In this document: positions 17,295 through 42,771 of the stretch, piece by piece
Numbering within the stretch: the stretch's first letter is position 1
Layout: each line of letters begins with the position of its first letter
DNA from: an uncultured Gammaproteobacteria bacterium
GTDB lineage: Bacteria; Pseudomonadota; Gammaproteobacteria; UBA4575
Direction of reading: 5' to 3'
DNA: 64,000 nucleotides
NCBI GenBank assembly: GCA_951812785.1
Contig: OX638335.1
Span: forward strand, 1,443,653 to 1,507,652
Translations under genes and position numbers: made by a program
Notes under the pieces: model-generated
What the model saw: the letters and a program-made list of their open reading frames with translations, nothing else
Database searches by the model: none
Told to the model about the DNA's origin: nothing

Positions 17295-17318
17295 AATTTA
17301 GTTAGTGAATATTAAAGA

Positions 17319-18535
17319 CACCCTGAAGTGTACTGAGTTTAAAGGATACCGAAAGTAAGAGACAATATCTTAGGAGGTATTCGATGACTCAACGCAAGAT
17401 CTACACAAAGGAATTTAAGCTAGAAGCGGTTCGTTTATTAACGCAAAGTGACTGTCCGACCACGGAGTTAGCCTTGGCGCTTGGGGTGAAACGGAGTCTG
17501 CTCTATTGATGGCAGCAACCATTTCAAACACAGGGCGAATCGGCTTTTACAGGGAAACTAGGTCGCCCTAAGAAAGAAGCAATGAGTGAGGCGGCTCGCC
17601 TCAGGCAAGAGGTTAAGCAGCTGCGCGAGGCGAATGAGATTCTAAAAAAGGCCGCCGCATACTTTGCCAAAGACCTCAAGTGAAGTATGCGTATATCAAA
17701 GAATGTCGTCCCCTTCATTCTGTAGCAGCTCTGTGTCGCGCTTTGTGCGTGTCTGAAAGTGGTTATTATGCTTGGTTAAATAGCGCACCTAGCCCTCGTC
17801 AACAAACGTCAATCGAAACAGTGTTATGGCATTCTTAAGTGTTGGAAACAGTTAATGCAGGAAGGGATTAGTGGTGGGCGTGATCGCGTCGCTCGTCTTC
17901 GACGACAACAGGCTATTGATGCAAAACGAAGAAAACGCTTTGTGGTGACGACACGATCTAAACATCGCGACTGGATTGCGCCGAACCGACTGAAACGCAA
18001 CTTTACGGTCACTCAGCCGAATCAAGTATGGGTAGGCGATGTAACGTTTGTTGCAACCCGTCAAGGTTGGTTGTATGTAGCGGTGCTGGTTGATCTGTAC
18101 CGCCGCAAAGTGGTGGGTTGGTCCCTGTCGAAGAACAATAATGGCCCGTTGGTGGAAGATGCGCTAAAGATGGCAATCACGCATCGAAAGCCAAAATCTG
18201 GATTGATTCATCATACAGATCGTGGCCACCTATGCTATGCAGTCGTATCGGAACCTAGTAGAGCAGCAGGGCATGATCTCCAGTATGAGTCGCAAAAAAG
18301 ACTGCTGGGATAATGCGGTGGCAGAAAGCTTCTTCGCTAATTTAAAAAATGCACTAACATACTACCAAACATACAACACACGAGAGGAGGCGCAATCCGC
18401 GATCTTTGAATATATGGAGATCTTTTATAACCGACAGCGGTTATATCAAACTCTCAACTACCAAACACCTGAACAACATGAATTGATGTATCATGCTGCT
18501 TAATTTAATCATCCTTTTTTCTCAGTACACTTCAG
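17319..18535 (+). mobile_element. IS3-family insertion sequence with degraded orfA/orfB
   Basis: 16-bp terminal inverted repeats: CCTGAAGTGTACTGAG at 17319-17334 and CTCAGTACACTTCAGG at 18520-18535. OrfA (17384-17683) has an in-frame TGA at 17507-17509 in the conserved LLYRW motif. OrfB (17690-18503) has the DDE core (..VWVGDVTF..LYVAVLVDLYRRKVVGW..IHHTDRG..) split by stops and frameshifts. Confidence 0.85.
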
Positions 18536-18572
18536 GCTCTGAATATGATCAAATAAACGTGGAGACAGTTTA

Positions 18573-18920
18573 ATGAAAATTAAACCCCTTCGTACCGAAG
18601 CAGAATATGAAGAAGCTTTGGCTGAAGTCGAAAAACTTTGGGGCACTAAACCTGGCACTCCGGAAGGTGACCGCTTAGACGTATTTATTACTTTAGTTGA
18701 AGCGTATGAAAGAGAACATCATAAGATTTCTCCTCCTAACCCTATTGAAGCAATTATTTTTAGAATGGAACAACTGGGGTTAAGCCGCAAAGATTTAGAG
18801 CCTTATTTAGGCAAAAGTGGCAGAGTGTCTGAAGTACTTAATTGAAAGCGAGACTTATCCCTGCGAATGATTAAAACACTGAATCATGAGCTCAATATAC
18901 CGTTAGAGTCTTTAGATTGA
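18573..18920 (+). pseudogene. HigA-like HTH antitoxin with an in-frame TGA
   Basis: MKIKPLRTEAEYEEALAEVEKLWGTKPGTPEGDRLDVFITLVEAYE..LSRKDLEPYLGKSGRVSEVLN*KRDLSLRMIKTLNHELNIPLESLD. TGA at 18843-18845 sits where the family has Arg. No intact partner toxin; the IS3 element abuts upstream. Confidence 0.6.
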
Positions 18921-19273
18921 TAGCCGACCTTAAAGTCACTTAGCTTTAACGGGGTTGGTAATTGCTTAGCGATGATTGATCTGCGAGCTAAACTGGATTT
19001 TCTTCAAAGGAAAATTAGGTATCGCTACGCGATTCAACTTAAGGGTTCAGTACCCTTTAAATATCTTTTGTTGGCCGCCCACATCTAGCTTGGCCCACTT
19101 TTGCTTGCAATATTTCTTCTATCTTTTTTCTAAATCTATTGCTGTCTTACCATCCAAAGCAAGATACTCATTGTGTGGCGTAAGTTTAAAGTCACTATTG
19201 TTAAGTGATCAGAATATCAGCAAACCAACCTATAATTTTCAGTTTGATGCGCACATCGTTTATGGAGCTAAAA

Positions 19274-20574: not shown

Positions 20575-23500
20575 TTCCTAAGCTGCCTGTGCGGCAGTAA
20601 ACATTGCGTTGGACTTGTACCGCCCGTTTCGTACTTTCTAAGCTGCCTGTGCGGCAGTAAACGTATGCATCCTTCCGGATGATACCAGTTTAGCTTTCTA
20701 AGCTGCCTGTGCGGCAGCTAACTATCGCGCAGTTCTTTTGAGTCCATGACCCACTTTCTAAGCTGCCTGTGCGGCAGCTAACAAGAATCAGTAGCATTTG
20801 AAGATATACTTGAATTTCTAAGCTGCCTGTGCGGCAGTAAACCTAATGCAGAAATCAACTCACAAGATTTATCATTTCTAAGCTGCCTGTGCGGCAGTAA
20901 ACATCGATCAAGCCGCTGGCCGATTTATATCGCGTTTCTAAGCTGCCTGTGCGGCAGTAAACCACTACCACTTGGTCGCCTCGGCGAAGCAATTTTTCTA
21001 AGCTGCCTGTGCGGCAGTAAACTGGTTAATCATACGACCGACTGACGACTTTGATTTCTAAGCTGCCTGTGCGGCAGTAAACTTCATTTTGTTTCTTCCG
21101 ACTTTCCAATCGTTTTTCTAAGCTGCCTGTGCGGCAGTAAACATGTAAAAAATGCATTAGCTGTTAATGCTGTGTTTCTAAGCTGCCTGTGCGGCAGTAA
21201 ACATCGATCAAGCCGCTGGCCGATTTATATCGCGTTTCTAAGCTGCCTGTGCGGCAGTAAACCACCGAGCAGCCAACACCACGGCCGTTCATCATTTCTA
21301 AGCTGCCTGTGCGGCAGTAAACAATGAAAAACTGGAAAGCAGCAGTGCGAACGTTTTCTAAGCTGCCTGTGCGGCAGTAAACGTACATCGCATATTGAGC
21401 AAGAAGTTATGCAATTTCTAAGCTGCCTGTGCGGCAGTAAACACCCTTGACTTATACCTTGAGATTTTGGTACTGTTTCTAAGCTGCCTGTGCGGCAGTA
21501 AACACTGTCGTAAAATGGTACACGGCGGCGGCGTTTTTCTAAGCTGCCTGTGCGGCAGTAAACGCTACACCACCTGTAATATTGACTTGTGCGCCTTTCT
21601 AAGCTGCCTGTGCGGCAGTAAACTACTTATAGCAACCTCAACTGATGTGGTGTCCTTTCTAAGCTGCCTGTGCGGCAGTAAACTACTTATAGCAACCTCA
21701 ACTGATGTGGTGTCCTTTCTAAGCTGCCTGTGCGGCAGTAAACCTTGTTGTTTTTTGTCGCTCTTAGAGCTGACTTTTCTAAGCTGCCTGTGCGGCAGTA
21801 AACTATTGGCTGTTGTCCAATATGCTGCAACTCTTTTTCTAAGCTGCCTGTGCGGCAGTAAACTAGCGAAGTGGTTCACAGCTGCCCAGTTGGATTTTCT
21901 AAGCTGCCTGTGCGGCAGTAAACGCACCGGTCTAGAAATTATAAGTTTACGAAGATTTCTAAGCTGCCTGTGCGGCAGTAAACCCAACTCGGTCTCAAGT
22001 CAAAAAAATCTACTGTTTCTAAGCTGCCTGTGCGGCAGTAAACGTGATCAAGCAATTGATGTGATCGATAAATTATTTCTAAGCTGCCTGTGCGGCAGTA
22101 AACCGGCGGTGGTAGAGGTGAAGCGATATCAGTGTTTTCTAAGCTGCCTGTGCGGCAGTAAACAATTCTTTTTGTCGCTCATAATTCTTGTCATTTTTCT
22201 AAGCTGCCTGTGCGGCAGTAAACGTTTCTTTCTTTTTATCTCTCTCTCTCCTTTCTAAGCTGCCTGTGCGGCAGTAAACGTTAGCATCACTGCGTTACAA
22301 AATATTACACGTTTCTAAGCTGCCTGTGCGGCAGTAAACAACATGTATATTACCTTTGCCCCAAGCGTTTATTTCTAAGCTGCCTGTGCGGCAGTAAACG
22401 GCTAACGCCGGTGACCAAGATGTCTTTGGATTTTCTAAGCTGCCTGTGCGGCAGTAAACCTGTGCATAGTCAAATAATGCATGGTTTTACATTTCTAAGC
22501 TGCCTGTGCGGCAGTAAACTGCATAAGCATGCCTAAAGACTTTCCTCGTGCTTTCTAAGCTGCCTGTGCGGCAGTAAACGTGGCCGAGGCGAAGCAATAT
22601 CTGTCTGGCTCTTTCTAAGCTGCCTGTGCGGCAGTAAACGGTGGTGGAAAACATGCTCTTAATTTTAGTGATTTCTAAGCTGCCTGTGCGGCAGTAAACC
22701 CGACGCCAGACTACAAAGACCTGAATATTTATTTCTAAGCTGCCTGTGCGGCAGTAAACTCGATACACAGGTGACACAACTCAAAATGTATTTTCTAAGC
22801 TGCCTGTGCGGCAGTAAACTCGTGTCACAGTCAGATAATGCATGGATTTACTTTCTAAGCTGCCTGTGCGGCAGTAAACGTGCAGGAGTAGGTACATTAG
22901 GCGACTATCTATTTCTAAGCTGCCTGTGCGGCAGTAAACGTGGCCGAGGCGAGGCAATATCTGTCTGGCTTTTTCTAAGCTGCCTGTGCGGCAGTAAACG
23001 CAACACGTGAGATCGATGAGATCTTATTAAATTTCTAAGCTGCCTGTGCGGCAGTAAACGTGCGTCTGTTATGCGCGGCACAACAGATAACTTTCTAAGC
23101 TGCCTGTGCGGCAGTAAACTTCGCAGCATCAACACGGGACTACAACACAATTTTCTAAGCTGCCTGTGCGGCAGTAAACGGTTAATGGATTTCTGTGCAC
23201 GCCATTCACCCTTTCTAAGCTGCCTGTGCGGCAGTAAACGGTGCAGGATTTCCCTTTCAGCGAATTGATGGTTTCTAAGCTGCCTGTGCGGCAGTAAACC
23301 TGTTGAGATTTTTGACAATGTCGGCGGTGCATTTCTAAGCTGCCTGTGCGGCAGTAAACACAAAAAGAATTCGCACAAAGTGGCATCAGGTTTTCTAAGC
23401 TGCCTGTGCGGCAGTAAACATGAATACCGGCGAGCTCAATCATCTATCGCATTTCTAAGCTGCCTGTGCGGCAGTAAACTGTCTGTTCGACCGTCTACAA

Positions 23501-26500
23501 TGTACAGCAACTTTCTAAGCTGCCTGTGCGGCAGTAAACGGGCAACTTAGCAACACGTAACACAGTGCAAGTTTCTAAGCTGCCTGTGCGGCAGTAAACT
23601 GGCCAAGAATCGACAACCATCATCTTGATGTTTTCTAAGCTGCCTGTGCGGCAGTAAACAAACAGAAATCAATTTTGAGAAAAATCGCTGATTTCTAAGC
23701 TGCCTGTGCGGCAGTAAACCAAAATTGATGGGAAGTCTAGACCTTCTTGAATTTCTAAGCTGCCTGTGCGGCAGTAAACCGCCTTGTTTTGACATCATCC
23801 AATCGATGATATTTCTAAGCTGCCTGTGCGGCAGTAAACTACCCGGCTCACATCTTGGATCTTTTAGATCGTTTCTAAGCTGCCTGTGCGGCAGTAAACT
23901 CGGAAATACTCAACAAAATGAACAACTTACATTTCTAAGCTGCCTGTGCGGCAGTAAACAGCGAATGCTTCAGACCAGTCAGTATTCGGCTTTTCTAAGC
24001 TGCCTGTGCGGCAGTAAACTGATGCTGTGTTCAAACCCAGTTAGCAAGCATTTTCTAAGCTGCCTGTGCGGCAGTAAACTAAAATTCCCTGTTACTCCAA
24101 ATCCTTTGACTTTTCTAAGCTGCCTGTGCGGCAGTAAACGCATGGACACATAATCAGTCTTATGAGTGTTATTTCTAAGCTGCCTGTGCGGCAGTAAACA
24201 TGCTAGGTTACAACGACCAGAATATTTAGGCTTTCTAAGCTGCCTGTGCGGCAGTAAACCTCTTGCAATACGTTGATCGTCAGTTTCCACCTTTCTAAGC
24301 TGCCTGTGCGGCAGTAAACTGTAACTCTTCAATTTCGCATAATTGATTCATTTTCTAAGCTGCCTGTGCGGCAGTAAACTAAAATTCCCTGTTACTCCAA
24401 ATCCTTTGACTTTTCTAAGCTGCCTGTGCGGCAGTAAACTCTGTCTGATTCGATCAATCCCGAAATCCACATTTCTAAGCTGCCTGTGCGGCAGTAAACA
24501 TAGTCGTTTAGCGAGAGGAGCGATTTGGGGATTTCTAAGCTGCCTGTGCGGCAGTAAACCTAGATATGTGGGTCGCCAAGCTCTGCCATCTTTTCTAAGC
24601 TGCCTGTGCGGCAGTAAACTATCGCAATACAAACTACTCACTACGGATCTTTTTCTAAGCTGCCTGTGCGGCAGTAAACTGAAACTGCCTGTAACGCCAA
24701 AACCTTTGACGTTTCTAAGCTGCCTGTGCGGCAGTAAACAGCAATCGGCGGAGTAGTCTCGACAGTCCTTGTTTCTAAGCTGCCTGTGCGGCAGTAAACT
24801 TGATGTTGCAACTGGATCTGCATTTAATCACTTTCTAAGCTGCCTGTGCGGCAGTAAACGCGCTAACAAATAGCGCTGGGATTTTTTGATCGTTTCTAAG
24901 CTGCCTGTGCGGCAGTAAACTATGATTTAGATCTCACACATGCTGAAAGTATTTTCTAAGCTGCCTGTGCGGCAGTAAACGGCAAATGCGAGTGACCAGG
25001 ATGTGTTTGGTTTTTCTAAGCTGCCTGTGCGGCAGTAAACCGAGTGCTATCAGATCAAGTCGATAAAAATCATTTCTAAGCTGCCTGTGCGGCAGTAAAC
25101 AACCCTGGCTATCCTAACGTTTTCGCTCGTGCTTTCTAAGCTGCCTGTGCGGCAGTAAACTTTCCCTTTGTAATATGTCCAATGCCGCTTCGTTTCTAAG
25201 CTGCCTGTGCGGCAGTAAACATGAATATAGGAGAGCTCAATCATCAATTGCTTTTCTAAGCTGCCTGTGCGGCAGTAAACCAGTTAATGCACGGCCGCCA
25301 GCTTCAACGTAATTTCTAAGCTGCCTGTGCGGCAGTAAACAATCAATTTTGAGGAGTATTGCGCATGAACGCTTTCTAAGCTGCCTGTGCGGCAGTAAAC
25401 CAGATGATCCTGCATTAACGATCTACGCGTTATTTCTAAGCTGCCTGTGCGGCAGTAAACTGCCACCATCTTTTGACTTTAGATGCTGTGCGTTTCTAAG
25501 CTGCCTGTGCGGCAGTAAACGGCTTCTTCTCTGACAAATTGACTTGCCAGGGTTTCTAAGCTGCCTGTGCGGCAGTAAACAGTGAGCATGGTCATATAAT
25601 ATCACTCATGTCTTTCTAAGCTGCCTGTGCGGCAGTAAACGTGGTGCAGTGGCGGATGAGGTTGAGTAAGTATTTCTAAGCTGCCTGTGCGGCAGTAAAC
25701 AGCCCGGACAGTCCGGCCCATCTCCGACAACCTTTCTAAGCTGCCTGTGCGGCAGTAAACATTCTGCTCCTAAATAATATCTGATTTTTGTTTTTCTAAG
25801 CTGCCTGTGCGGCAGTAAACATGATCGATGCGCAGTTAGCAAGACTGCGCGCTTTCTAAGCTGCCTGTGCGGCAGTAAACTACATATAGGTGAAATCAAT
25901 TCACATTCCCTCTTTCTAAGCTGCCTGTGCGGCAGTAAACTGTCTCATGTTGTACTGCAAGATTTCTGGCGCTTTCTAAGCTGCCTGTGCGGCAGTAAAC
26001 TTCGTGCTCGTCGTCTTGTCAGCAAATCAACTTTTCTAAGCTGCCTGTGCGGCAGTAAACGTTGTTGATCGTCGCTCTTGGATGCGACGATCTTTCTAAG
26101 CTGCCTGTGCGGCAGTAAACGAAGGTCTTGCAATTGATATATGCACGCTCTCTTTCTAAGCTGCCTGTGCGGCAGTAAACGCAGCACTGCTACTGGTGCG
26201 AGATAACTAAGTTTTCTAAGCTGCCTGTGCGGCAGTAAACTTTTTATCTCAAGCGCCGATGCTGCGCGGGCATTTCTAAGCTGCCTGTGCGGCAGTAAAC
26301 TAAGCTGTAAGACGAGGAAATAATTATGTCATTTTCTAAGCTGCCTGTGCGGCAGTAAACGAATATTCCTTCGGAACGTGTCACCGCATTTATTTCTAAG
26401 CTGCCTGTGCGGCAGTAAACGTGCTGTGACAGCATTAACAATTAACAATAATTTTCTAAGCTGCCTGTGCGGCAGTAAACTTTTTATCTCAAGCGCCGAT

Positions 26501-29500
26501 GCTGCGCGGGCATTTCTAAGCTGCCTGTGCGGCAGTAAACTAAGCTGTAAGACGAGGAAATAATTATGTCATTTTCTAAGCTGCCTGTGCGGCAGTAAAC
26601 GAATATTCCTTCGGAACGTGTCACCGCATTTATTTCTAAGCTGCCTGTGCGGCAGTAAACGTGCTGTGACAGCATTAACAATTAACAATAATTTTCTAAG
26701 CTGCCTGTGCGGCAGTAAACTAAATTTAGCAATGAGAATTGCAGCACTTGTTTTTCTAAGCTGCCTGTGCGGCAGTAAACGACAATTTGTCGAGCAAGCG
26801 TATGAAGAAATCTTTCTAAGCTGCCTGTGCGGCAGTAAACTCATTGCGCCTGCAACTGCGATTGCAATTGCATTTCTAAGCTGCCTGTGCGGCAGTAAAC
26901 AGCAGCCAGAAATGTCAGGGATTGCGTTATTTTTTCTAAGCTGCCTGTGCGGCAGTAAACCAAATGGCAATGTTGGTAAAATGTTCGGTCATTTTCTAAG
27001 CTGCCTGTGCGGCAGTAAACTTTGAAAAACTCAGGTATTAAAGCAAAAAATTTTTCTAAGCTGCCTGTGCGGCAGTAAACCGATCGAGGCGGTGGTAGAG
27101 ATGAAACAGGAGTTTCTAAGCTGCCTGTGCGGCAGTAAACGGACTAATGAGACCAGCAGCTACTAATTCGCTTTTCTAAGCTGCCTGTGCGGCAGTAAAC
27201 TTGCAAAGTGGTTTACTGCTGCACAGTTAGACTTTCTAAGCTGCCTGTGCGGCAGTAAACATAACAACACAAGAAGTAATGAAATTAGTAGTTTTCTAAG
27301 CTGCCTGTGCGGCAGTAAACTTGAAGTCAAATTTACATTGATGCCGGAAAGCTTTCTAAGCTGCCTGTGCGGCAGTAAACTGAAATTTCCGGTAACGCCG
27401 AAGCCTTTGACGTTTCTAAGCTGCCTGTGCGGCAGTAAACATATAATTCTGACATTATTTTTTACCTCGTCTTTTCTAAGCTGCCTGTGCGGCAGTAAAC
27501 GCACGCTTTCAATTCATAAACAGACAATGCACTTTCTAAGCTGCCTGTGCGGCAGTAAACCAACAGACAGTCAGACAGTCGCAGATCAATATTTTCTAAG
27601 CTGCCTGTGCGGCAGTAAACGTACGTCTTTTTTACACAAACTATTATCAACGTTTCTAAGCTGCCTGTGCGGCAGTAAACTCGACTTCCATTGTTTGCAT
27701 TCGAATTTTGTCTTTCTAAGCTGCCTGTGCGGCAGTAAACGCCGAGCGGTAACGATACTGCCGGACCCCTCTTTTCTAAGCTGCCTGTGCGGCAGTAAAC
27801 ATAAAATTAATTACATGCGCAAACACTATAATTTTCTAAGCTGCCTGTGCGGCAGTAAACACACGCTTTCGATTCATAAACAGACAATGCATTTTCTAAG
27901 CTGCCTGTGCGGCAGTAAACATAAAATTAATTACATGCGCAAACACTATAATTTTCTAAGCTGCCTGTGCGGCAGTAAACTTTTTGGTTAGCACCAAGAG
28001 CCCGCGCACGCGTTTCTAAGCTGCCTGTGCGGCAGTAAACATGTTGTCATTGATGAAAATACACATGTTTTTTTTCTAAGCTGCCTGTGCGGCAGTAAAC
28101 AAACACTCGCGACTATCGCGGCTCCGCCAACATTTCTAAGCTGCCTGTGCGGCAGTAAACGAACAAAATTAGGTATCAAAGGCTTGCTAGAATTTCTAAG
28201 CTGCCTGTGCGGCAGTAAACTCGATTTTGATGTTGCGAAGTTGCCGCCTCTTTTTCTAAGCTGCCTGTGCGGCAGTAAACCTCCGACTGATGGCGGCATG
28301 CCAAGATAATCTTTTCTAAGCTGCCTGTGCGGCAGTAAACTGTCGCGATACTAGTGATTCTAGAACGTAGATTTTCTAAGCTGCCTGTGCGGCAGTAAAC
28401 TGTCGCGATACTAGTGATTCTAGAACGTAGATTTTCTAAGCTGCCTGTGCGGCAGTAAACAGGTAATCTTCCTGCATTATTGCCATGGATTCTTTCTAAG
28501 CTGCCTGTGCGGCAGTAAACGCAACTGGTACAAATAACCACAAATATTGAATTTTCTAAGCTGCCTGTGCGGCAGTAAACTGAAATTGGTGCAGGAGTTG
28601 GGCGAAGAGATGTTTCTAAGCTGCCTGTGCGGCAGTAAACGCAACTGGTACAAATAACCACAAATATTGAGTTTTCTAAGCTGCCTGTGCGGCAGTAAAC
28701 ATACTACAGATAACAAAAATTAATAAGCAACTTTTCTAAGCTGCCTGTGCGGCAGTAAACCGTGTGTTTTTTTGTTTTGTTGTGACTGATTTTTTCTAAG
28801 CTGCCTGTGCGGCAGTAAACGGAACTGCAGCATATCGGACAACAACCAATTCTTTCTAAGCTGCCTGTGCGGCAGTAAACCGGCACAACTGACAACGGAC
28901 TTGAGCTTGTGTTTTCTAAGCTGCCTGTGCGGCAGTAAACGCTTATTACCCTGGCCCGCGGGTAGATCTTCGTTTCTAAGCTGCCTGTGCGGCAGTAAAC
29001 TATCAAATGCAGAATCAGTATCGCCGCCGAGATTTCTAAGCTGCCTGTGCGGCAGTAAACATGTTGCGATTACTAATGTTGCATCGCAACAGTTTCTAAG
29101 CTGCCTGTGCGGCAGTAAACTGCTCTTCGTTCTCTGTCTTTTCGTTCTTCTGTTTCTAAGCTGCCTGTGCGGCAGTAAACTTTCTTGACGCATTTCTACA
29201 ACAGCTTCAACCTTTCTAAGCTGCCTGTGCGGCAGTAAACATGAAATTAGTGGTGGAATTAGGAGAAGAAATTTTCTAAGCTGCCTGTGCGGCAGTAAAC
29301 GCAATTAGTACAAATAACCACAGATATAACATTTTCTAAGCTGCCTGTGCGGCAGTAAACCAGGAAGGGATTTTTTTGACCAGCCCGTTGGCTTTCTAAG
29401 CTGCCTGTGCGGCAGTAAACTGAGTTGGGGAGCAATCGGCGGCGCTATAGGTTTTCTAAGCTGCCTGTGCGGCAGTAAACGTAACTTAGATTTTGTAGTT

Positions 29501-32500
29501 CAAAAACGAGGCTTTCTAAGCTGCCTGTGCGGCAGTAAACACACGCTTTCAGTACATAAACAAACGATGCACTTTCTAAGCTGCCTGTGCGGCAGTAAAC
29601 TTTTAGAAGGATGTGGATTATGTGTTTTAATCTTTCTAAGCTGCCTGTGCGGCAGTAAACGCACAAAATTAGGTATTGCTGGTCTATTAGAATTTCTAAG
29701 CTGCCTGTGCGGCAGTAAACTATTCGAGATTCAGGTGTTTCTTTTGACCTGATTTCTAAGCTGCCTGTGCGGCAGTAAACGACGCGCGTTAACTGCGCAA
29801 GAAGAATTGGTCTTTCTAAGCTGCCTGTGCGGCAGTAAACTTGTCATCGCGCTGCGCAAAGCGCGAGTGGTTTTTCTAAGCTGCCTGTGCGGCAGTAAAC
29901 GTCGTTCGAGTGCTTCAGCACCAGCAACACCCTTTCTAAGCTGCCTGTGCGGCAGTAAACACAATGTCAATAATCTCTGTACGACAATTAACTTTCTAAG
30001 CTGCCTGTGCGGCAGTAAACTGAAATTAGTGGTAGAATTAGGTGAAGAACTGTTTCTAAGCTGCCTGTGCGGCAGTAAACTCTGTCTGATTCGATCAATT
30101 CCGAAGTCCACATTTCTAAGCTGCCTGTGCGGCAGTAAACTCTGTCTGATTCGATCAATTCCGAAGTCCACATTTCTAAGCTGCCTGTGCGGCAGTAAAC
30201 TCTGTCTGATTCGATCAATTCCGAAGTCCACATTTCTAAGCTGCCTGTGCGGCAGTAAACACAGTGTGCATCTCATAACTAAGCAAGACACTTTTCTAAG
30301 CTGCCTGTGCGGCAGTAAACATAGTCGTTTAGCGAGAGGAGTAATTTGGGGATTTCTAAGCTGCCTGTGCGGCAGTAAACAGATGCTCAAAAATATGCAA
30401 CTTAGTAAGTTATTTCTAAGCTGCCTGTGCGGCAGTAAACGCGGTACTGCTGCTGTACGCGTGTAATCAACTTTTCTAAGCTGCCTGTGCGGCAGTAAAC
30501 ATTCAGCCTATCAACACATTACAACAGCAATCTTTCTAAGCTGCCTGTGCGGCAGTAAACGGACTTTACCGCGCGGACGAAAGCGATAGCGCCTTTCTAA
30601 GCTGCCTGTGCGGCAGTAAACTACCACAATGTGACCTTCATACTAACGGGGCATTTCTAAGCTGCCTGTGCGGCAGTAAACAAGATTTACATTAGCATTA
30701 CCAACGATCTGTTTTTCTAAGCTGCCTGTGCGGCAGTAAACCAAATGATCCTGTTACTCCGAAGCCCTTGACTTTTCTAAGCTGCCTGTGCGGCAGTAAA
30801 CGAAATCTAGATTTCGTAGTTCAAAGACGCGGATTTCTAAGCTGCCTGTGCGGCAGTAAACGTTACTGGTTAAGACTCTTTCAACAGATTGTTTTTCTAA
30901 GCTGCCTGTGCGGCAGTAAACGCCCCGAAAGTGGTCGATAACGACAAAAGTGCTTTCTAAGCTGCCTGTGCGGCAGTAAACGTCTATTACGTACCTAGAC
31001 TTGCCCCGAAAGTTTTCTAAGCTGCCTGTGCGGCAGTAAACTCAATACAAACAGAAAACGAATGAAACCAAAGTTTCTAAGCTGCCTGTGCGGCAGTAAA
31101 CGAATCTGCTTGGTTGCGTACGAGACGCGCTGATTTCTAAGCTGCCTGTGCGGCAGTAAACTCCCTGCGCGATTTCGTTGCCTGATTGATCCTTTTCTAA
31201 GCTGCCTGTGCGGCAGTAAACTAATGTTTGTCGTTTTGCTTGCGTCATACTGCTTTCTAAGCTGCCTGTGCGGCAGTAAACTCCGCGCAAAGATTTTCAC
31301 GTCGTGCCGCGCGTTTCTAAGCTGCCTGTGCGGCAGTAAACATTTTGAAAATGTCAAAAAAGGTGATTTGGGCTTTCTAAGCTGCCTGTGCGGCAGTAAA
31401 CCAATACCGCGCTCTGTATTCAAACTGGATCATTTTCTAAGCTGCCTGTGCGGCAGTAAACATAGCTAAACTTGGTAATGTAAATGAAGCTCATTTCTAA
31501 GCTGCCTGTGCGGCAGTAAACTTAGATGGTCAGTCGAAGACGCAAAAGCGGCTTTTCTAAGCTGCCTGTGCGGCAGTAAACGTGTCAGAATATATGGAAA
31601 AATTTGGCCGCTTTTTCTAAGCTGCCTGTGCGGCAGTAAACCTAGCAAGCCTTTAATACCTAACTTCGTCCGATTTCTAAGCTGCCTGTGCGGCAGTAAA
31701 CATATCACGAAGCAGCATTGGACATATTGGTAATTTCTAAGCTGCCTGTGCGGCAGTAAACTTTTAATGGCATTTAAAGATTCATTCTTGTCATTTCTAA
31801 GCTGCCTGTGCGGCAGTAAACACAATTAGTAAGAATAACCACAAATATAGAGTTTTCTAAGCTGCCTGTGCGGCAGTAAACTGGCAAGTCTATATGTAGA
31901 AGAAGAAGCGAAATTTCTAAGCTGCCTGTGCGGCAGTAAACTTAGTCAGTACAAACTACTTACGACCGATCTTTTTCTAAGCTGCCTGTGCGGCAGTAAA
32001 CATTACACAATCACGATTATGCAACTGTAGAGATTTCTAAGCTGCCTGTGCGGCAGTAAACTTTCTATAACAGCTTCAACTGAAGCAGTGTCATTTCTAA
32101 GCTGCCTGTGCGGCAGTAAACGCTATAGAACTAGAACAAGAAGAATTAGAATTTTTCTAAGCTGCCTGTGCGGCAGTAAACCAACTAGAGAGTGATACTT
32201 AAAAAATTAGGGTTTTCTAAGCTGCCTGTGCGGCAGTAAACTTTGTTATTGTCGCTTTCTGATGCGACTGGATTTTCTAAGCTGCCTGTGCGGCAGTAAA
32301 CATATCATCAATTATTTACAGTTAGGCACAGATTTTCTAAGCTGCCTGTGCGGCAGTAAACGTAACGAGACTGCTGGACCGCGCTGCGCCCAGTTTCTAA
32401 GCTGCCTGTGCGGCAGTAAACCATAGCACAGCACTAATACGGTGCACGCCGATTTTCTAAGCTGCCTGTGCGGCAGTAAACGAAATCTCGATTTCGTAGT

Positions 32501-34822
32501 TCAGAAGCGCGGCTTTCTAAGCTGCCTGTGCGGCAGTAAACTTGCAAAGTGGTTCACAGCAGCGCAGTTAGATTTTCTAAGCTGCCTGTGCGGCAGTAAA
32601 CAGCAACCGGAAATGTCAGGGATCGCGTTATTCTTTCTAAGCTGCCTGTGCGGCAGTAAACGAGTCGACAGCGCCAGATTTTGGTGCTGTCGATTTCTAA
32701 GCTGCCTGTGCGGCAGTAAACATGAAAGATTGGAAAGCAGCGGTACGAACCTTTTCTAAGCTGCCTGTGCGGCAGTAAACGGATTTCAAATCCCAGATAC
32801 GGCGGCAGTCGATTTCTAAGCTGCCTGTGCGGCAGTAAACCTATGATTATCGGATAAATTTTCATCATTATATTTCTAAGCTGCCTGTGCGGCAGTAAAC
32901 GGCATTTCAATGGGCTCGGAAGGCATGAAATATTTCTAAGCTGCCTGTGCGGCAGTAAACGTAACGAGACTGCTGGACCGCGCTGCGCCCAGTTTCTAAG
33001 CTGCCTGTGCGGCAGTAAACCATAGCACAGCACTAATACGGTGCACGCCGATTTTCTAAGCTGCCTGTGCGGCAGTAAACTGATGCCTGAGAGCGGGGCT
33101 GTTGTACCAAGTTTTCTAAGCTGCCTGTGCGGCAGTAAACACGTTCTCCCGCATACCCGTCAACTTCACCACTTTCTAAGCTGCCTGTGCGGCAGTAAAC
33201 TAAGAAAGAAGCAATGAGTGAGGCGGCTCGCCTTTCTAAGCTGCCTGTGCGGCAGTAAACTCGTGCCGATTAGTTGCACAGAAGTACTGCCTTTTCTAAG
33301 CTGCCTGTGCGGCAGTAAACAACTACTTAGATATGATAAGCGATTAGATAAATTTCTAAGCTGCCTGTGCGGCAGTAAACCCCGTCAAGTTATTATAACT
33401 GGTCCGCGCGGCTTTCTAAGCTGCCTGTGCGGCAGTAAACACTATGAGAGACAAAAAGAATTTGCGCAGAGCTTTTCTAAGCTGCCTGTGCGGCAGTAAA
33501 CGCCCGTCAAAACTTTGTGCAATATAAGGCATCTTTCTAAGCTGCCTGTGCGGCAGTAAACCGAAAAAAACAGATACACGTCTGTATTATATGTTTCTAA
33601 GCTGCCTGTGCGGCAGTAAACGTATCGTGCGCCGTATCTGGCGCGAGCCTCTTTTTCTAAGCTGCCTGTGCGGCAGTAAACTGAGCGCATGTTTACCGCC
33701 ACCTAAGTATTCTTTTCTAAGCTGCCTGTGCGGCAGTAAACGTGCAGTAGTGCCAAGCGGCAACGAAACTGCATTTCTAAGCTGCCTGTGCGGCAGTAAA
33801 CTGAGTGCGTGTTTGCCTCCGCCAAGGTACTCATTTCTAAGCTGCCTGTGCGGCAGTAAACCCAAAACTGGATGCATGAGCGGAGCAGCCATGTTTCTAA
33901 GCTGCCTGTGCGGCAGTAAACCAGTTAGTAAAAATGGTATGACATTCGGTTGCTTTCTAAGCTGCCTGTGCGGCAGTAAACACGCGGTCGAATGTCCAAG
34001 TATAGAGTCGCCATTTCTAAGCTGCCTGTGCGGCAGTAAACTTCTGCGTTTTGCCGCATCGATGACATCTGCGTTTCTAAGCTGCCTGTGCGGCAGTAAA
34101 CGCTTTGTTGAGCCTTTTTTTCGGCCAGCACCTTTTCTAAGCTGCCTGTGCGGCAGTAAACGGCTCTCAAATACGAGATAACACATCAATTGATTTCTAA
34201 GCTGCCTGTGCGGCAGTAAACCTAGCAACTTGCTTGCAAGTTGCTAGCCTAGAGTTTCTAAGCTGCCTGTGCGGCAGTAAACATGGCTAGTAATAAGATA
34301 CGAGCTCGTCGACTTTTCTAAGCTGCCTGTGCGGCAGTAAACCGGAGATAATTATGAGTTGGGGTAGTGCAATATTTCTAAGCTGCCTGTGCGGCAGTAA
34401 ACTGTGGATAGACGGCTATTTTTTAGCGACCGATTTTCTAAGCTGCCTGTGCGGCAGTAAACATGGTTTAGAGCAAGTTACAGATCGCGACTTATTTCTA
34501 AGCTGCCTGTGCGGCAGTAAACTCTGTCTGATTCGATCGATGCCAAAATCCACATTTCTAAGCTGCCTGTGCGGCAGTAAACTTAGCGAGAGGAGCAATT
34601 TGGGGCGGATTGGCTTTCTAAGCTGCCTGTGCGGCAGTAAACAAACGCAGAATGTCAGCGCGACAATACAAGCATTTCTAAGCTGCCTGTGCGGCAGTAA
34701 ACACCAGGGAGGATTGACCAAAAGATCGAGACAATTTCTAAGCTGCCTGTGCGGCAGTAAACCTTAAACACTACTATTATAGTGTTTGCGCATATTTCTA
34801 AGCTGCCTGTGCGGCAGTAAAC
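20575..34822 (-). CRISPR. type I-F CRISPR array, ~238 repeats and 237 spacers, transcribed right to left
   Basis: 28-nt repeat (minus-strand reading GTTTACTGCCGCACAGGCAGCTTAGAAA) on a strict 60-nt period with mostly 32-nt spacers. The distal repeat at 20575-20602 carries one substitution. The leader-proximal repeat ends at 34822, next to cas6f. Confidence 0.98.
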
Positions 34823-34952
34823 ACCAAGTATAATGCGCAAAAAAACAGCTACAACAAACACTTAACTCCAATCGATATAAAATATCAATGAAATCAAGGC
34901 TTGTTGTAACTCATTGATTTTATTGAGCGTTAAAGAACGGTAAAAATAAAGG
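34823..34952 (-). promoter_or_regulatory. CRISPR leader (AT-rich) between cas6f and the first repeat
   Basis: 130-bp AT-rich segment directly upstream of the leader-proximal repeat in array orientation. A TATACT -10-like box sits about 10 nt before the repeat. Confidence 0.6.
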
Positions 34953-35504
34953 TCAAAACCAGGGGACGGTGGCAATTTTGGATAATCCAAATAAGTCAAA
35001 TTTTCCCGTGATGGGCTGACTGGTTAAATCACTAAATTTAATGTAGCGCCTGTGTTTATGTTTGTTCGATCCACTGATGAGTTCGATATAGGGATTCTCT
35101 AATCCTTGGGTAAACATCTTTGCACGGTATTGTTTAACCTCTTCCTCTGTGATTGAACCACGTTTTATCAATCGATTCAGTTTGGCTTGGCTCATGTTGG
35201 CTTGCACTCGGCTAACGGTGCGGTATTGAACGTTATCCGGTACAGGTTGAATCGCTGACACCTGACAGTAACCGCTCATGCCGCCAACCCAGTTTTTATC
35301 CTGTAATTGAGTCAATGCAGTTTGTGTTCCATGTATGCGCAACTGATCGCCCAACGTCTTTTGATAGGCTGGAAAGCTCACGCCAATGTCGGTGCTGTTC
35401 AGGTCACACAGGGCTTTGTGGAATTTGGCGTACAACGAATCCATAAGTATCCTGGATCGGAATTCCGGGTCGGGTAATAACGTGATATTCAAGTAGTTAT
35501 CCAT
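34953..35504 (-). CDS. cas6f: Cas6f (Csy4) crRNA endoribonuclease
   Basis: 183 aa; MDNYLNITLLPDPEF...GLSKIATVPWF matches the Cas6f N- and C-terminal signatures. Last gene of the operon, next to the leader. Confidence 0.93.
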   Translation of the reverse strand: MDNYLNITLLPDPEFRSRILMDSLYAKFHKALCDLNSTDIGVSFPAYQKTLGDQLRIHGTQTALTQLQDKNWVGGMSGYCQVSAIQPVPDNVQYRTVSRVQANMSQAKLNRLIKRGSITEEEVKQYRAKMFTQGLENPYIELISGSNKHKHRRYIKFSDLTSQPITGKFDLFGLSKIATVPWF

Positions 35505-39042: not shown

Positions 39043-39077
39043 CCATTTAACTATTGGTATAAAATACTCCAACTACT
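39043..39077 (+). promoter_or_regulatory. CC PAM plus seed-matched target site of the adjacent psi-spacer; overlaps an extended -10 (TGgTATAAA, 39055-39063) that faces the mini-CRISPR
   Basis: Positions 1-14 of the site match psi-spacer 39096-39128 except at positions 6 and 12; 22/33 overall; CC immediately 5'. Confidence 0.55.
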
Positions 39078-39156
39078 GAAAAAGCAGCTTAGAAAATTTA
39101 CCTATTCGTGGTTATTTATCCATTTACTGCTTACTGCCGCATAGGCAGCTTGAACC
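39068..39156 (+). ncRNA. degenerate mini-CRISPR (psiR1-psiS-psiR2), candidate crRNA-like regulator of the CreR/CreA type
   Basis: psiR1 at 39068-39095 matches 19/28 but ends in a perfect GCAGCTTAGAAA 5' handle. 33-nt psi-spacer at 39096-39128. psiR2 at 39129-39156 matches 22/28 and keeps the intact hairpin CTGCCGCATAGGCAG. Orientation is opposite to the cas genes. Confidence 0.6.
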
Positions 39157-39182: not shown

Positions 39183-42100
39183 TCACACTCTCACCAATCC
39201 GAATTGGTCGTTATATTTATATTTAGCGCTTTCATCGTGCCAAAAACTTAACTCGCCATAGCGCAACGATGCCCTACGCATACTCATATCTTGTGCGTCT
39301 GCCATACTTGCTATTTCTGCTTCAAAGTCGCGTTGTAGCCATAGCCGTTTGCTTGCTTCTGTAGCCAACTGCACACGATCAATACCAAGCGGTAGTTCAC
39401 GTGGCACAGGAAAGCCTTTTTCGTTTTTTTCACAAAAGGTACATGCCTGCTTATTTTCATCAAAGGCCAAAAACACTTTCAAGCTCGGCGGAGATTTTCT
39501 AAACGACACTATGTGTTGCGGGTATGCCGTCAAAAACCAGGCTTCACGCAAATAGCCTTGTAGCTGAGCAGGGCCGTTACCGTCTCGTCCATAGTTAGCC
39601 AATAACTTGCAAATAACATAATGTTCTAAATCTGCCAATTGTTTTTTAGGCTGTAGATCTTTTGATTTTTGGATACGTGCAATAGCATCTACACGCTGTA
39701 ATAAGGCATCCGCATCCAGCAAGTCATTCAAGTTGTGGCTTGCCAACCTGATTTGGTCTTCAAAACCTGGCCTGTTAAATACTTTACCGTTTTCAAGGTG
39801 TTTATCGCGTACCCCCCGCCAGTTGTATTGCAGCAAACTGATGTTAGGCACTTCCACGCCGATTTTACGATGACGACGCACACGTCCTGCCAATTGGATA
39901 ATTGAACGATACGAAGATGGTTCCACAACTGCCCAGTCAAAATCGTGGTCGCGACCAACCTCTTCTACGGGAGTTGCCACTAACACAAACAGCACATGTT
40001 TAACCTGTGGTTCGGTTCGCTTTATATGCTCAAGGTGTTGACGAATAACAGTGTTTAGAAAAGCTTTGGGTTGTTCATCTATGTCTTCTTTACGTTTTAA
40101 TACTTGGCCTAGGTGCTGTTCTTGTTTATGGCGCATCAGCAAGACTTGCTGACTGTGGTACGGCATCGTTCTTATCTGAACGTCTGCTGGCAGATCCATC
40201 TTTAGCAAGTAACGGGCTAAGGCTATGCAGGGTTGAATATTCGCCATGCGCACCACGCCAAACGACACCGCCAATTGGCTTTGTTGATCAACCATGTGAT
40301 GGTGCTGATGTTTAGTGAGAACACTATCAGTAATGATTTTAAAATAGGCTTGTTGTTTACTCGCTATAACGTTTTCATCGTTAGGGCTATGGGTAAAATC
40401 AGCAAAGATTTGTTCACAAGGAGTAATGTCAGCTTTGCGCTTAACCGGTTGTTTGACTAATTTAGCAACGCGTTTTTCGACAAATTTCACGTGTTCACTG
40501 CGGTAAGCAGGTATTGCATCCCGCACTTGCAAGCCATGATTACTTGCGACGACTGTGTTAAATTCATCTATCCATGCACAGCCCACCGTCGCACTGGCAT
40601 CACGGCTTTTACAGTAGATTAGCCATCCATCTCGGTACGCTTTGAAGTAGCCTTCAGCTAAATCAGGCGTAATGGTTGCCGAGGAGATCATCACCTTTCG
40701 ACCTAACATACCTGCTAAGTGAATGAGGCGTCCAATAGCGACTAAATCCTCACCGGTAAAATCGTCAACTTCATCAATTACTAGATCAGAAGACATTAAC
40801 CGTAGAGTAGGCAAAATATAGCGCCCCCCACGCTTAGTCTCAGTTGCCGCCATAAGATGGTCGATGGTGCAGGCTAATACCGGCGCATAGAGGAATTTTT
40901 TATCACGTTGTTCACGCAGTACGGTAGTCATACCTTCTTCAGGAATAGCGCAATCGTAATCGACTTCTTCATCCAACAATGTTTCTTGTGACTCTGAACC
41001 ACTTGCTTCAAAACTCAGTTCTTCTGTCTCAGTTTTTGCTTGCTGATGTAACGCCATGACGGCACGCGAGCCGATCAGTACCGCCAGTTCGGTTGCATCC
41101 AAACCCACTCGCTCACGGTATTCATCACCTGTTTGTAATGTGAGGGTACGTAAGCCCAGAGCCAAAATAAAACGCAGGCTATTCCCATCATTTGATACAG
41201 CCTGCATCACTTTGGCATTGGCAAAGGTTTTACCGCAGCCCGTACTTGCCATATTCACAGCGAAAAAACCTTGCTTTTGCGTATTATTCTTGCGCCAATG
41301 TTTAATGTTATCTACGGCTTTATCTTGCCAACGAAATTCGCCAGGGCTTAGTTTTTTCAATGCTGTGATGTCTTGCGCTATGGGTGGTTCAGCTTCAAAT
41401 GCCGGTAGCAAATGTGCAGTGTTTAAACCATGCCTTGCAACACCAACCAAATGCTCATCCAGCTTTTGCTTTAAAGCTTTAGTTTTAAAATCGGTATTGG
41501 CAAATAAGCCGAGCTTGTCTTGCCATTTTTTATCGGCATTTTGTGATGAGTAATAATGATCACCCAGCATTACGCATAACCGCGCATAATTTAATACTGA
41601 TCGGTAACTGCCATCATTGAGTGATTGCAATACCTGCGATTCACAAGCTAGTAAGCGTTGTGACCATTTTTTAATTTGCTTTAACCAAGGTTGCGAAGCG
41701 CTGAGTAGCCCATTAGGAAAATTAAAACATTGTTCAACCCGCTGCTTATATTCAGCCTGATCATAGTTGTTTTCGTAACCCCACTGCTGAGTAACCAGGC
41801 ATAAAACATTATCAATGTTAGGACAGCATTCAGCCCGCATATCCACATCTTTATTTAGCGGTAAACGATGATGGGAGACAACCAGCCAAGCCACTAGTTT
41901 AGCTATCGGTGGTAAATTTTTTAGCGGATTAGTCTGCTGTTTACTGGCAATGGCTTTTATCTTGGCTTCATCAATGTCGCCTTTTGCTAAGGTCTCAAGC
42001 CAACCACTATCGTTTACATTGTTTGTATCGCCTTGATGCATTTGAATAAGTGCATTCAGCAATAAACACGAAATCCATTCATGCCGAATAGGGTCACCTT

Positions 42101-42545: not shown

Positions 42546-42699
42546 CCGTTACCCAGATAGGTTAGAATCCGGTTGTCGTCTGGCCAAGAATCGACAACCA
42601 TCATCTTGATGTTTACAGCACAAACGAAATGCTGCATCCAAAGGGATTTGCGAGTGACATTGCTTACCACACAATGTTTCAGCTCACCCCTTAGGCGAC

Positions 42700-42752: not shown

Positions 42753-42771
42753 AATAATCTGCTATACTTTG

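What the first reader, a model, noticed from the sequence alone, without database searches (positions are those of the whole stretch)
20575..34822. Exceptionally large I-F array (~238 repeats, 14.2 kb) with near-invariant repeats
Typical I-F arrays hold 10-60 spacers. This one is about 237 spacers long, with essentially identical repeats. The only exceptions are the distal repeat (one substitution) and a few spacers of 28, 31 or 33 nt. An array of this size implies sustained, probably primed, acquisition. It makes this locus a dense record of the strain's mobile-element encounters.
Basis: seen in the sequence. Interest (0 to 1): 0.55.

Follow-up and report, generated by a model that had tools for sequence, protein, structure and literature searches.

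The report
Very long ordinary I-F CRISPR array
This is a real, intact, unusually long (237-spacer) but otherwise standard type I-F CRISPR array; the only invaders its memory can be traced to are small single-stranded DNA phages (Microviridae), sampled again and again, and arrays this long have been reported before.

Summary
There are 238 copies of a 28-nt repeat at 20575-34822 and 237 spacers: 230 of 32 nt, five of 33, one of 31, one of 28. crRNA sense is the minus strand. The array follows a 130-bp leader and a complete cas1, cas2-3, csy1-4 operon. Two details need correcting. Three repeats vary, not one, all at the far end. Only 224 spacers are unique.

The size is top-of-range for I-F (median 14, third quartile 52), but not unprecedented. 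Published I-F arrays reach 248 spacers and 304 repeats.

The content is redundant. Eighty-one spacers fall into 33 families. Most families are independent re-acquisitions of the same site from diverged coding homologues, because 75% of mismatches share one codon phase. Both strands are sampled.

The only identifiable targets are gokushovirus-like Microviridae, at roughly 30-45 of 224 unique spacers, with a 5'-CC PAM at 53 of 53 homologous sites. No plasmid matches were found.

This fits recurrent, probably primed, acquisition. Priming itself is inferred, not shown.

Separately, both cas intergenic regions hold CreA/CreR-like mini-arrays with PAM-flanked partial targets.

Verdict: a new member of a known kind, of modest interest.

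The parts
20575..34822 (-). CRISPR array: 238 x 28-nt repeat GTTTACTGCCGCACAGGCAGCTTAGAAA and 237 spacers. Spacer 1, the newest, is at 34763-34794. Spacer 237 is at 20603-20634.
20575..20602 (-). Terminal (oldest) repeat, 1 substitution (…CTTAGGAA)
20695..20782 (-). Two distal repeats (20695-20722 and 20755-20782) that share the same 2-substitution variant, GTTAGC…
34823..34952 (-). Leader: 130 bp, AT-rich, between the csy4 stop and the first repeat. One sigma-70-like site runs 34944->34917. An IHF-like AATCAATGAGTTA was seen by eye.
   Evidence: The promoter call is no better than the shuffle expectation, so this is inference only.
34953..35504 (-). cas6f / csy4
   Evidence: TIGR02563, 192 bits
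35513..36538 (-). cas7f / csy3
   Evidence: TIGR02566, 446 bits
36557..37489 (-). cas5f / csy2
   Evidence: TIGR02565, 210 bits
37486..38802 (-). cas8f / csy1
   Evidence: TIGR02564, 169.8 bits against a cut-off of 169.4. There are 2429 homologues at E<=1e-20, and the listed ones carry the Csy1 Pfam domain PF09611.
39043..39156 (+). Mini-array 2 in the cas2-3/csy1 spacer. PsiR1 is 39068-39095, PsiS2 is 39096-39128 (33 nt) and PsiR2 is 39129-39156. Its CC-flanked partial target lies at 39043-39077.
39183..42545 (-). cas2-3 fusion (Cas3f)
   Evidence: TIGR02562, 976 bits
42731..42847 (+). Mini-array 1 in the cas1/cas2-3 spacer. PsiR1 is 42772-42799, PsiS1 is 42800-42819 (20 nt) and PsiR2 is 42820-42847. 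Its CC-flanked partial target lies at 42731-42752.
42891..43829 (-). cas1 (Cas1f)
   Evidence: TIGR03637, 499 bits
26241..26692 (-). Exact 4-spacer block duplication: spacers 136-139 = 140-143
33622..33893 (-). Run of adjacent spacers 16-20, all with Microviridae similarity. Four map to VP1 at protein level and the fifth hits another microvirus ORF.
22700..24231 (-). Spacers 177 (24200-24231) and 202 (22700-22731). These are the best database matches, to the Microviridae major capsid gene, with a conserved CC PAM.
17569..17600 (-). Perfect in-window match to spacer 27. There is no 5'-CC; GG lies on the 3' side.
42581..42612 (-). Perfect in-window match to spacer 187, inside the cas1/cas2-3 intergenic region. 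No PAM in either orientation.

Best explanation
This is a canonical, probably active, subtype I-F1 CRISPR-Cas locus in an uncultured gammaproteobacterium with a 2.16-Mb contig.

How it works, by inference from established I-F biology. The array is transcribed on the minus strand from the leader next to csy4. Cas6f cuts after the 5-bp-stem hairpin in each repeat. Each crRNA then has an 8-nt CUUAGAAA handle, a 32-nt spacer and a 20-nt hairpin. The Csy complex finds targets with a 5'-CC PAM, and Cas2-3 degrades them. Cas1 with Cas2-3 adds new spacers at the leader end.

The array reached 237 spacers mainly through many independent acquisitions, plus 13 duplications of spacer-repeat units. Much of that sampling came repeatedly from a few recurrent invaders.

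The only invader class that can be named is gokushovirus-like Microviridae. Their capsid (VP1), pilot (VP2) and replication (VP4) genes were hit on both strands. The same protospacers were re-acquired from diverged virus variants.

That pattern is what primed, mismatch-triggered adaptation plus conserved-PAM hot spots would give.

Shown: anatomy, subtype, PAM, redundancy, independent re-acquisition and the Microviridae share. Inferred: activity, priming and the processing details.
For: Repeat count and spacing.

Hairpin: -8.6 kcal/mol, 5-bp stem.

All six cas genes are full-length hits to the I-F equivalog models.

PAM: CC lies immediately 5' of the protospacer, in spacer sense, at 30/30 and 23/23 homologous microvirus sites for spacers 177 and 202.

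Families: 33 families covering 81 spacers. A shuffled control gave no pair at the score threshold used.

Independent acquisition: 122 of 163 mismatches between related spacers fall in one codon phase. The null mean is 91.5 and the maximum of 2000 simulations is 104. Seven families include opposite-strand overlaps, and several others are shifted by 1-16 nt.

Repeated order: the F3-then-F2 pair was acquired three times in the same order, as spacers 173/172, 77-79/75 and 5/4.

Microviridae share. Phage-database hits are only to Microviridae capsid genes, apart from one chance-level hit to an E. coli phage. Against 122 microviruses, 23 spacers reach >=23/32 identity, versus 2 reversed controls. 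By blastx, 26 spacers reach >=21 bits versus 1-4 controls, and 43 reach >=20 bits versus about 11.5. Sense and antisense are 13 and 13.

Precedent: Legionella arrays, including I-F, target Gokushovirinae, mostly VP1, with adjacent spacers read as priming (10.1101/2021.03.08.434514).
Against: No spacer has a perfect external protospacer; the best are 29/31 and 28/30. The true targets are therefore not in hand.

About 80% of unique spacers have no detectable source.

Clustering of microvirus-like spacers along the array is only marginal, at P~0.06.

Naive acquisition with strong hot spots, or selection for spacers in conserved sites, could give the same families.

Activity is inferred only from intact genes.

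The sequence appears to come from a metagenome-type assembly. The tandem duplicates (77=78=79 and others) could not be checked against reads.
Confidence: 0.78

Rival explanations
1. The array grew by naive (unprimed) acquisition and an unusually low spacer-loss rate. The families reflect acquisition hot spots, and selection for spacers at conserved Pro/Gly-coded CC PAMs, rather than priming.
For: Mismatch phase is mostly position 0 of the spacer. The CC PAM therefore sits at codon positions 1-2, a conserved-PAM effect that needs no priming. Adjacency clustering is only marginal.
Against: Opposite-strand overlapping spacers, and the newest spacer (1) overlapping older spacers 115/117 on the other strand, fit the bidirectional, strand-independent pattern described for I-F priming (PMC4117759, title and abstract listed). 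The same ordered pair was acquired three times.
Confidence: 0.25
2. The length is inflated by duplication within the array, or by assembly error in a repetitive region.
For: There are 13 exact duplicate spacers, including a triple tandem copy and a 4-unit block.
Against: 224 spacers are distinct. Even with every duplicate removed, the array stays above 220 spacers. The diverged families cannot be duplicates, because of the codon-phase pattern and the 1-16 nt register shifts.
Confidence: 0.05
3. The array is a mosaic joined by recombination between the arrays of related strains, each of which had sampled local variants of the same viruses.
For: Ordered motifs recur at distant places: F3/F2 three times, F30..F31 twice, and F14/F17 twice.
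Against: Variant repeats occur only at the distal end, with no internal junction signature. No spacer is shared with any other fetched I-F array. Relatives with 94-97% identical RpoB showed no close Cas8f homologue; the next best is 77%.
Confidence: 0.08
4. The array is a fossil: the system no longer acquires or interferes.
For: A decayed IS and restriction-modification graveyard adjoins the distal end. Perfect self-matches are tolerated. The WYL regulator upstream of cas1 is split into two ORFs.
Against: All six cas genes are full-length. 235 of 238 repeats are identical. The self-matches lack a CC PAM, so they need no inactivation to be tolerated.
Confidence: 0.12

Closest known systems
Acinetobacter subtype I-Fb arrays (Touchon et al. 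2014, PMC4224351)
   Same: 28-nt I-F repeat, very long arrays ('up to 304 repeats'), highly conserved repeats and highly variable spacers, most with no database match.
   Different: Different host lineage and repeat variant. The identifiable targets there were Acinetobacter phages, plasmids and conjugation genes. Here they are Microviridae, with no plasmid hit.
Legionella pneumophila CRISPR arrays that target Gokushovirinae (Deecker et al. 2021, bioRxiv 10.1101/2021.03.08.434514)
   Same: Spacers against VP1, VP2 and VP4 of uncultured gokushoviruses. Matches are imperfect. Adjacent spacers are read as priming.
   Different: There, 35 spacers are spread over 11 arrays and about 1500 unique spacers. 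Here, an estimated 30-45 sit in one array of 224 unique spacers.
Model I-F1 systems (Pseudomonas aeruginosa PA14, Pectobacterium atrosepticum)
   Same: Gene order cas1, cas2-3, csy1-4 then the array. 28-nt repeat with a Cas6f hairpin, 32-nt spacers and a CC PAM. The comparison with the model systems rests on general knowledge of I-F biology.
   Different: From general knowledge, the model arrays hold roughly 10-30 spacers. This locus also carries long intergenic regions with mini-arrays. PA14 lacks the cas2-3/csy1 intergenic region (10.64898/2026.06.02.729485).
I-F CreTA modules (Acinetobacter sp. WCHA45, PMC10097628; P. aeruginosa, bioRxiv 10.64898/2026.06.02.729485); applies to the two mini-arrays only
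   Same: Two degenerate repeats flank a short pseudo-spacer, 20 nt in mini-array 1 as in WCHA45. Each has a partial, CC-flanked target nearby. One sits in the cas3-csy1 intergenic region.
   Different: The second copy sits between cas1 and cas2-3, a position not reported in the passages read from those two papers. No toxin was identified. An autoregulatory (CreR-type) role is equally possible.

Membership tests
Type I-F (I-F1) CRISPR-Cas array | 28-nt repeat of the I-F family | tested here: met
   The CRISPR-DR4 (RF01317) hits listed score 46.8 bits against a gathering score of 35. By count (245 hits minus 7 tRNAs), all 238 copies are matched.
Type I-F (I-F1) CRISPR-Cas array | Repeat forms the Cas6f hairpin, leaving an 8-nt 5' handle | tested here: met
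   Predicted 5-bp stem and 5-nt loop at positions 6-20, -8.6 kcal/mol, with CUUAGAAA 3' of it. Cleavage itself was not tested.
Type I-F (I-F1) CRISPR-Cas array | Adjacent cas1, cas2-3 fusion, cas8f, cas5f, cas7f and cas6f | tested here: met
   All six match the NCBIfam I-F equivalog or exception models above their cut-offs.
Type I-F (I-F1) CRISPR-Cas array | 32-nt spacers | tested here: met
   230 of 237 are 32 nt.
Type I-F (I-F1) CRISPR-Cas array | 5'-CC PAM on the strand identical to the spacer | tested here: met
   53 of 53 homologous microvirus sites for spacers 177 and 202. CC also appears at the best hits of spacers 17, 29, 55, 154 and 190. This rests on imperfect matches.
Type I-F (I-F1) CRISPR-Cas array | Leader with a promoter and an IHF site next to the first repeat | tested here: inconclusive
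   A 130-bp AT-rich leader. One promoter-like site was found, which equals the shuffle expectation. The IHF-like motif was seen by eye only.
Type I-F (I-F1) CRISPR-Cas array | Interference and adaptation activity | not testable with these tools
   Needs expression data or an assay.
Primed adaptation signature | Several spacers against one element, from both strands | tested here: met
   At least 26 microvirus-like spacers, split 13 sense and 13 antisense. Seven families overlap on opposite strands.
Primed adaptation signature | Older, partly mismatched spacers to the same site as newer ones | tested here: met
   About 24 diverged families, for example 173 -> 77 -> 5. The mismatches are codon-phased.
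Primed adaptation signature | Same-target spacers lie next to each other in the array | tested here: inconclusive
   There is a run at spacers 16-20, but the permutation test gives P~0.06.
CreA/CreR-type crRNA-like regulator (the two mini-arrays) | Two repeat-like elements with the hairpin, flanking a pseudo-spacer | tested here: met
   Mini-array 1 at 42772-42847: both elements keep the hairpin. Mini-array 2 at 39068-39156: only PsiR2 keeps it; PsiR1 is degenerate, with 9 mismatches, and retains the CTTAGAAA handle. Mini-array 2 is conserved in three related loci.
CreA/CreR-type crRNA-like regulator (the two mini-arrays) | PAM-flanked partial match to a nearby site | tested here: met
   PsiS1: CC plus 10 contiguous matches, 15/20 overall, reached by 14 of 5000 shuffles. 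PsiS2: in the first 14 nt, mismatches occur only at positions 6 and 12, reached by 2 of 5000 shuffles.
CreA/CreR-type crRNA-like regulator (the two mini-arrays) | Target overlaps a promoter, and repression of a toxin or of cas genes | tested here: inconclusive
   The targets overlap or abut consensus promoter-like sites. These are pattern matches only. No toxin family was found for the 41-aa or 58-aa ORFs.

The most novel reading that the evidence does not exclude
The array is a multi-epoch record of an arms race between one uncultured marine-type gammaproteobacterium and a single lineage of gokushovirus-like Microviridae. On this reading, the same orthologous protospacers are re-acquired, in the same order, each time the virus drifts, which is natural 'spacer updating' by priming against an ssDNA phage. 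The locus is also guarded or regulated by two crRNA-like RNAs. One sits in an unreported position between cas1 and cas2-3, and its neighbouring sequence is matched by the array's own spacer 187.
Probability: 0.35. Interest if true: 0.5.

Novelty: new member of a known kind. Interest (0 to 1): 0.3.

Why it matters
The locus gives a host link for orphan marine-type Microviridae. The nearest matches are microviruses from Ciona gut samples.

It is also an unusually deep natural sample, about 24 diverged families, of repeated acquisition at orthologous protospacers. That bears on how priming and conserved PAMs shape long-term CRISPR memory.

It does not change what is known about I-F systems or about array size limits.

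Tried and rejected
Plasmid targets: all 224 unique spacers searched against PLSDB gave no match at E<=1.

Exact targets in IMG/VR and JGI metagenomes. Codon-degenerate patterns for the most re-sampled families found nothing useful. These were F22 (VKGFGVTG), F3 (VDFGIDRIRQ) and the peptide EYLGGGKHAL. The few hits found were matches by construction, in unrelated contigs.

The GPAVSLPLGTTA pattern fetched five more microviruses, but none is closer than about 80%.

Finding the source record by exact protein look-up failed. The cluster look-up gave only 'NCBI, ENA, one contig of 2,158,385 bp'.

The exact repeat occurs in 26 stretches of the one-genome-per-species set, with at most 39 copies in any stretch. 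The source genome is therefore not a representative there.

Sharing of spacers with other fetched I-F arrays: none.

The cas1/cas2-3 intergenic region has no phage match. Its plasmid matches are to I-F CRISPR arrays only, through the repeat-like part.

In-array mutation as the origin of the related spacers was rejected on the codon-phase test and the register shifts.
Full report
OBSERVATION. The interval 20575-34822 holds 238 copies of a 28-nt repeat. On the + strand it reads TTTCTAAGCTGCCTGTGCGGCAGTAAAC. Three counts agree: a fuzzy-match script, the DNA search with up to 3 mismatches (238 matches, 0 in 100 shuffles), and Rfam (245 gathering-threshold hits, of which 7 are tRNAs and the rest CRISPR-DR4, all on the minus strand). 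The 237 spacers are 230 x 32 nt, 5 x 33, 1 x 31 and 1 x 28. Two details are not. Three repeats deviate, not one: 20575 carries one substitution, and 20695 and 20755 share the same two. All three lie at the low-coordinate end. Also, only 224 spacers are distinct, because 13 are exact duplicates, including a triple tandem copy (77-79) and a four-unit block (136-139 = 140-143).

ANATOMY AND ORIENTATION. In crRNA sense (the minus strand) the repeat is GTTTACTGCCGCACAGGCAGCTTAGAAA. It folds into a 5-bp stem with a 5-nt loop followed by CUUAGAAA. Directly upstream in that orientation lie a 130-bp AT-rich leader (34823-34952) and six genes on the minus strand. These are csy4 (34953-35504), csy3 (35513-36538), csy2 (36557-37489), csy1 (37486-38802), cas2-3 (39183-42545) and cas1 (42891-43829). 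Each is a full-length match to its NCBIfam I-F model. The degenerate repeats sit at the far end, as expected for the oldest units. This is the standard I-F1 layout. A frameshifted IS4 transposase (19274-20476) abuts the distal end. The 10 kb beyond it is a graveyard of IS fragments and broken type I restriction-modification genes.

SOURCE. Cas8f, NusG and RpoB of the window are each on record once, on a single 2,158,385-bp contig held by NCBI and ENA. RpoB relatives at 90-97% identity are all unnamed, or labelled 'MAG: Gammaproteobacteria bacterium'. The nearest cultured organism is Thioalkalivibrio, at 78%. A 94%-RpoB relative with a 2.7-Mb contig has ordinary genes, not this island, next to its tuf operon. 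The nearest Cas8f is only 77% identical; Coxiella burnetii's degraded I-F locus is at 74%. The system therefore looks like an island specific to this lineage.

IS THE SIZE EXCEPTIONAL? Against the typical I-F array, yes. In 91 chromosomal I-F systems the mean was 33 spacers, the median 14 and the third quartile 52 (PMC5575924). It is not unprecedented. The same table gives a maximum of 248. [quoted passage not shown] Other types reach 587 spacers (PMC8047081). Among loci fetched here for other reasons, a Pseudohongiellaceae MAG with 75%-identical Cas8f has at least 95 repeats and runs off the fetched stretch. An Amphritea locus has at least 98 and a Shewanella locus at least 72. Near-invariant repeats in a long I-F array are the published norm.

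SPACER CONTENT: REDUNDANCY. An all-against-all comparison, allowing any register and either strand, links 81 spacers into 33 families. A shuffled control gave no pair at the score threshold used. Eight families are pure exact duplicates, that is, unit duplications within the array. About 24 are diverged. Among the diverged pairs, 122 of 163 mismatches fall in a single codon phase. The null mean is 91.5, and the largest of 2000 simulations is 104. Some members are shifted by 1-16 nt or lie on the opposite strand. Mutation inside the array cannot produce this. These are independent acquisitions of orthologous protospacers from diverged protein-coding homologues. The favoured phase puts the CC PAM at codon positions 1-2, which is my inference. 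That would keep the PAM conserved across virus variants. Ordered motifs recur: F3 then F2 three times (173/172, 77-79/75, 5/4), and F31..F30 twice. The newest spacer (1) overlaps older spacers 115/117 on the opposite strand.

SPACER CONTENT: TARGETS. The 224 unique spacers found nothing in 72,556 plasmids. In 50,697 phage records they found only Microviridae major-capsid genes, plus one chance-level hit to an E. coli phage at E=0.06. The best matches are spacer 177 at 29/31 and spacer 202 at 28/30, in microviruses from Ciona gut samples. I fetched 120 IMG/VR microviruses that share the VP1 motif encoded by those spacers. Against these plus the two GenBank records, 23 spacers reach at least 23/32 identity, versus 2 reversed controls. 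At protein level against microvirus ORFs, 26 spacers reach at least 21 bits versus 1-4 in four controls. Forty-three reach at least 20 bits versus about 11.5, and 69 reach at least 19 bits versus about 27. That gives an excess of roughly 30-45 of 224, or 14-20%. It is a lower bound, because only conserved regions can be detected with such distant references. Recognisable peptides tile VP1 (W-QRGPAVSLPLGTTAPLSGI from spacers 31, 118, 18 and 29; EYLGGGKHAL; DARLQRPEYLG; DYLGMPPSV). Others tile VP2 (NDKNYERQKEFAQSGIR from spacers 211, 23 and 191) and VP4 (EYMEKFGR). Sense and antisense spacers are equal, 13 and 13. Thirteen of 27 lie in spacers 1-60, including the run 16-20. Adjacency is marginal at P~0.06. 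No near-identical virus was found in IMG/VR or JGI metagenomes. Legionella arrays show the same target class on a smaller scale.

PAM AND SELF-MATCHES. At every homologous microvirus site for spacers 177 (30/30) and 202 (23/23), the two bases 5' of the protospacer in spacer sense are CC. This is the I-F PAM, as described in PMC10097628. It also confirms the strand assignment. Three spacers match the window outside the array. Spacer 27 matches perfectly at 17569-17600. Spacer 187 matches perfectly at 42581-42612. Spacer 2 matches with 3 mismatches at 11937-11968. None has a 5'-CC. Spacer 27's target has GG on the 3' side, as a spacer inserted in flipped orientation would; that is my inference. 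Lack of a PAM is enough to explain why these matches are tolerated.

MECHANISM. The processing, surveillance, degradation and integration steps follow from established I-F biology and were not tested here. What the sequence adds is this. The memory is dominated by repeated sampling of a few invaders. Partly mismatched older spacers coexist with newer versions of the same site. Both strands are used. That is the expected footprint of primed adaptation in I-F (title and abstract of PMC4117759; PMC9602844). Hot-spot naive acquisition with selection for conserved sites remains a live alternative.

NOTICED OUTSIDE THE FINDING. Both long intergenic regions inside the cas operon carry a mini-array on the + strand, antisense to cas.

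Mini-array 1 lies between cas1 and cas2-3. PsiR1 is 42772-42799, the 20-nt PsiS1 is 42800-42819 and PsiR2 is 42820-42847. PsiS1 matches CC+TATAAAGAGT… at 42731-42752, with 10 contiguous PAM-proximal bases and 15/20 overall. That site overlaps the -10 of a minus-strand promoter-like site pointing at cas2-3.

Mini-array 2 lies between cas2-3 and csy1. PsiR1 is 39068-39095, the 33-nt PsiS2 is 39096-39128 and PsiR2 is 39129-39156. PsiS2 matches CC+ATTTAaCTATTgGT at 39043-39077. Within the first 14 nt, mismatches fall only at positions 6 and 12, the positions that do not pair in type I complexes (general knowledge).

Shuffled pseudo-spacers reach these scores in 14 and 2 of 5000 trials. Mini-array 2 is conserved in three related loci. 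It sits where I-F CreTA modules have been described (PMC10097628; 10.64898/2026.06.02.729485). Spacer 187's self-match lies in the roughly 200 nt between mini-array 1's target and the cas2-3 start. These are candidate CreA/CreR-type regulators, a known kind. Function and any toxin are untested.

VERDICT. This is a very long but conventional I-F1 array, a new member of a known kind. Its modest interest lies in the microvirus-heavy, re-sampled content and in the two mini-arrays, not in its size.

Noticed in passing
window 42731-42847 (+): A mini-array lies between cas1 and cas2-3: a degenerate repeat, a 20-nt pseudo-spacer and a repeat-like element. A CC-flanked partial target (10 contiguous matches, 15/20 overall) sits 48 bp upstream, over a minus-strand promoter-like -10 box. 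It is a CreA/CreR-like candidate. The two I-F CreTA papers read place their modules between cas3 and csy1, not here.
   Followed up: partly
window 39043-39156 (+): A second mini-array lies between cas2-3 and csy1, with a 33-nt pseudo-spacer. Its CC-flanked target has mismatches only at positions 6 and 12 within the first 14 nt. The repeat-like parts are conserved in three related I-F loci (L161-L163).
   Followed up: partly
window 42581-42612 and spacer 187 (23600-23631): An array spacer matches the locus's own cas1/cas2-3 intergenic region perfectly, with no PAM in either orientation. The match lies inside a 41-aa ORF (42549-42674) preceded by a strong Shine-Dalgarno-like AAGGGGTGA, and it overlaps an 8-bp-stem hairpin.
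   Followed up: partly
window 17569-17600 (spacer 27) and 11937-11968 (spacer 2): Spacer 27 has a perfect self-match with GG on the 3' side instead of CC on the 5' side, as a flipped spacer would. Spacer 2 has a 3-mismatch match with no PAM. Both lie in the IS and restriction-modification graveyard.
   Followed up: partly
window about 10300-20476: Between the tRNA cluster next to tuf and the array lies a decayed region. It holds fragments of IS1595, IS3-type (rve), IS4 and HTH transposase genes, together with broken type I restriction genes (hsdS and hsdR pieces).
   Followed up: partly
window 44672-45427 (-): Upstream of cas1, an HTH ORF (116 aa) and a WYL-domain ORF (133 aa) lie end to end. 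In relatives (L161, L162) a single WYL/WCX protein of 287-314 aa occupies this place, so the regulator may be split here.
   Followed up: no
L161 5426-6308, L162 2936-3818, L163 5454-6308: In related I-F loci the cas1/cas2-3 junction holds inserted genes, either ORF6N/pRha-like plus Fic-like_C, or Bro-N. This junction seems to be a cargo site in this clade.
   Followed up: no
L029-L032 (Coxiella burnetii): Coxiella burnetii genomes carry a decayed I-F locus with split cas1, cas2-3 and sometimes csy2. A single I-F repeat follows csy4 in the two loci scanned (L029, L031). Their Cas8f is 74% identical to the window's.
   Followed up: no
window 38803-38979 (-): A 58-aa ORF ends immediately before the csy1 start codon, preceded by a TTGACC-17-TATAAA promoter-like site. 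It matches no Pfam family and is absent from the aligned intergenic regions of relatives.
   Followed up: partly
array-wide (diverged spacer families): Mismatches between related spacers fall mostly at spacer positions 1, 4, 7 and so on. The CC PAM therefore occupies the first two positions of a codon (Pro CCN, or Gly GGN on the other strand). This may explain why these sites stay acquirable across virus variants.
   Followed up: partly
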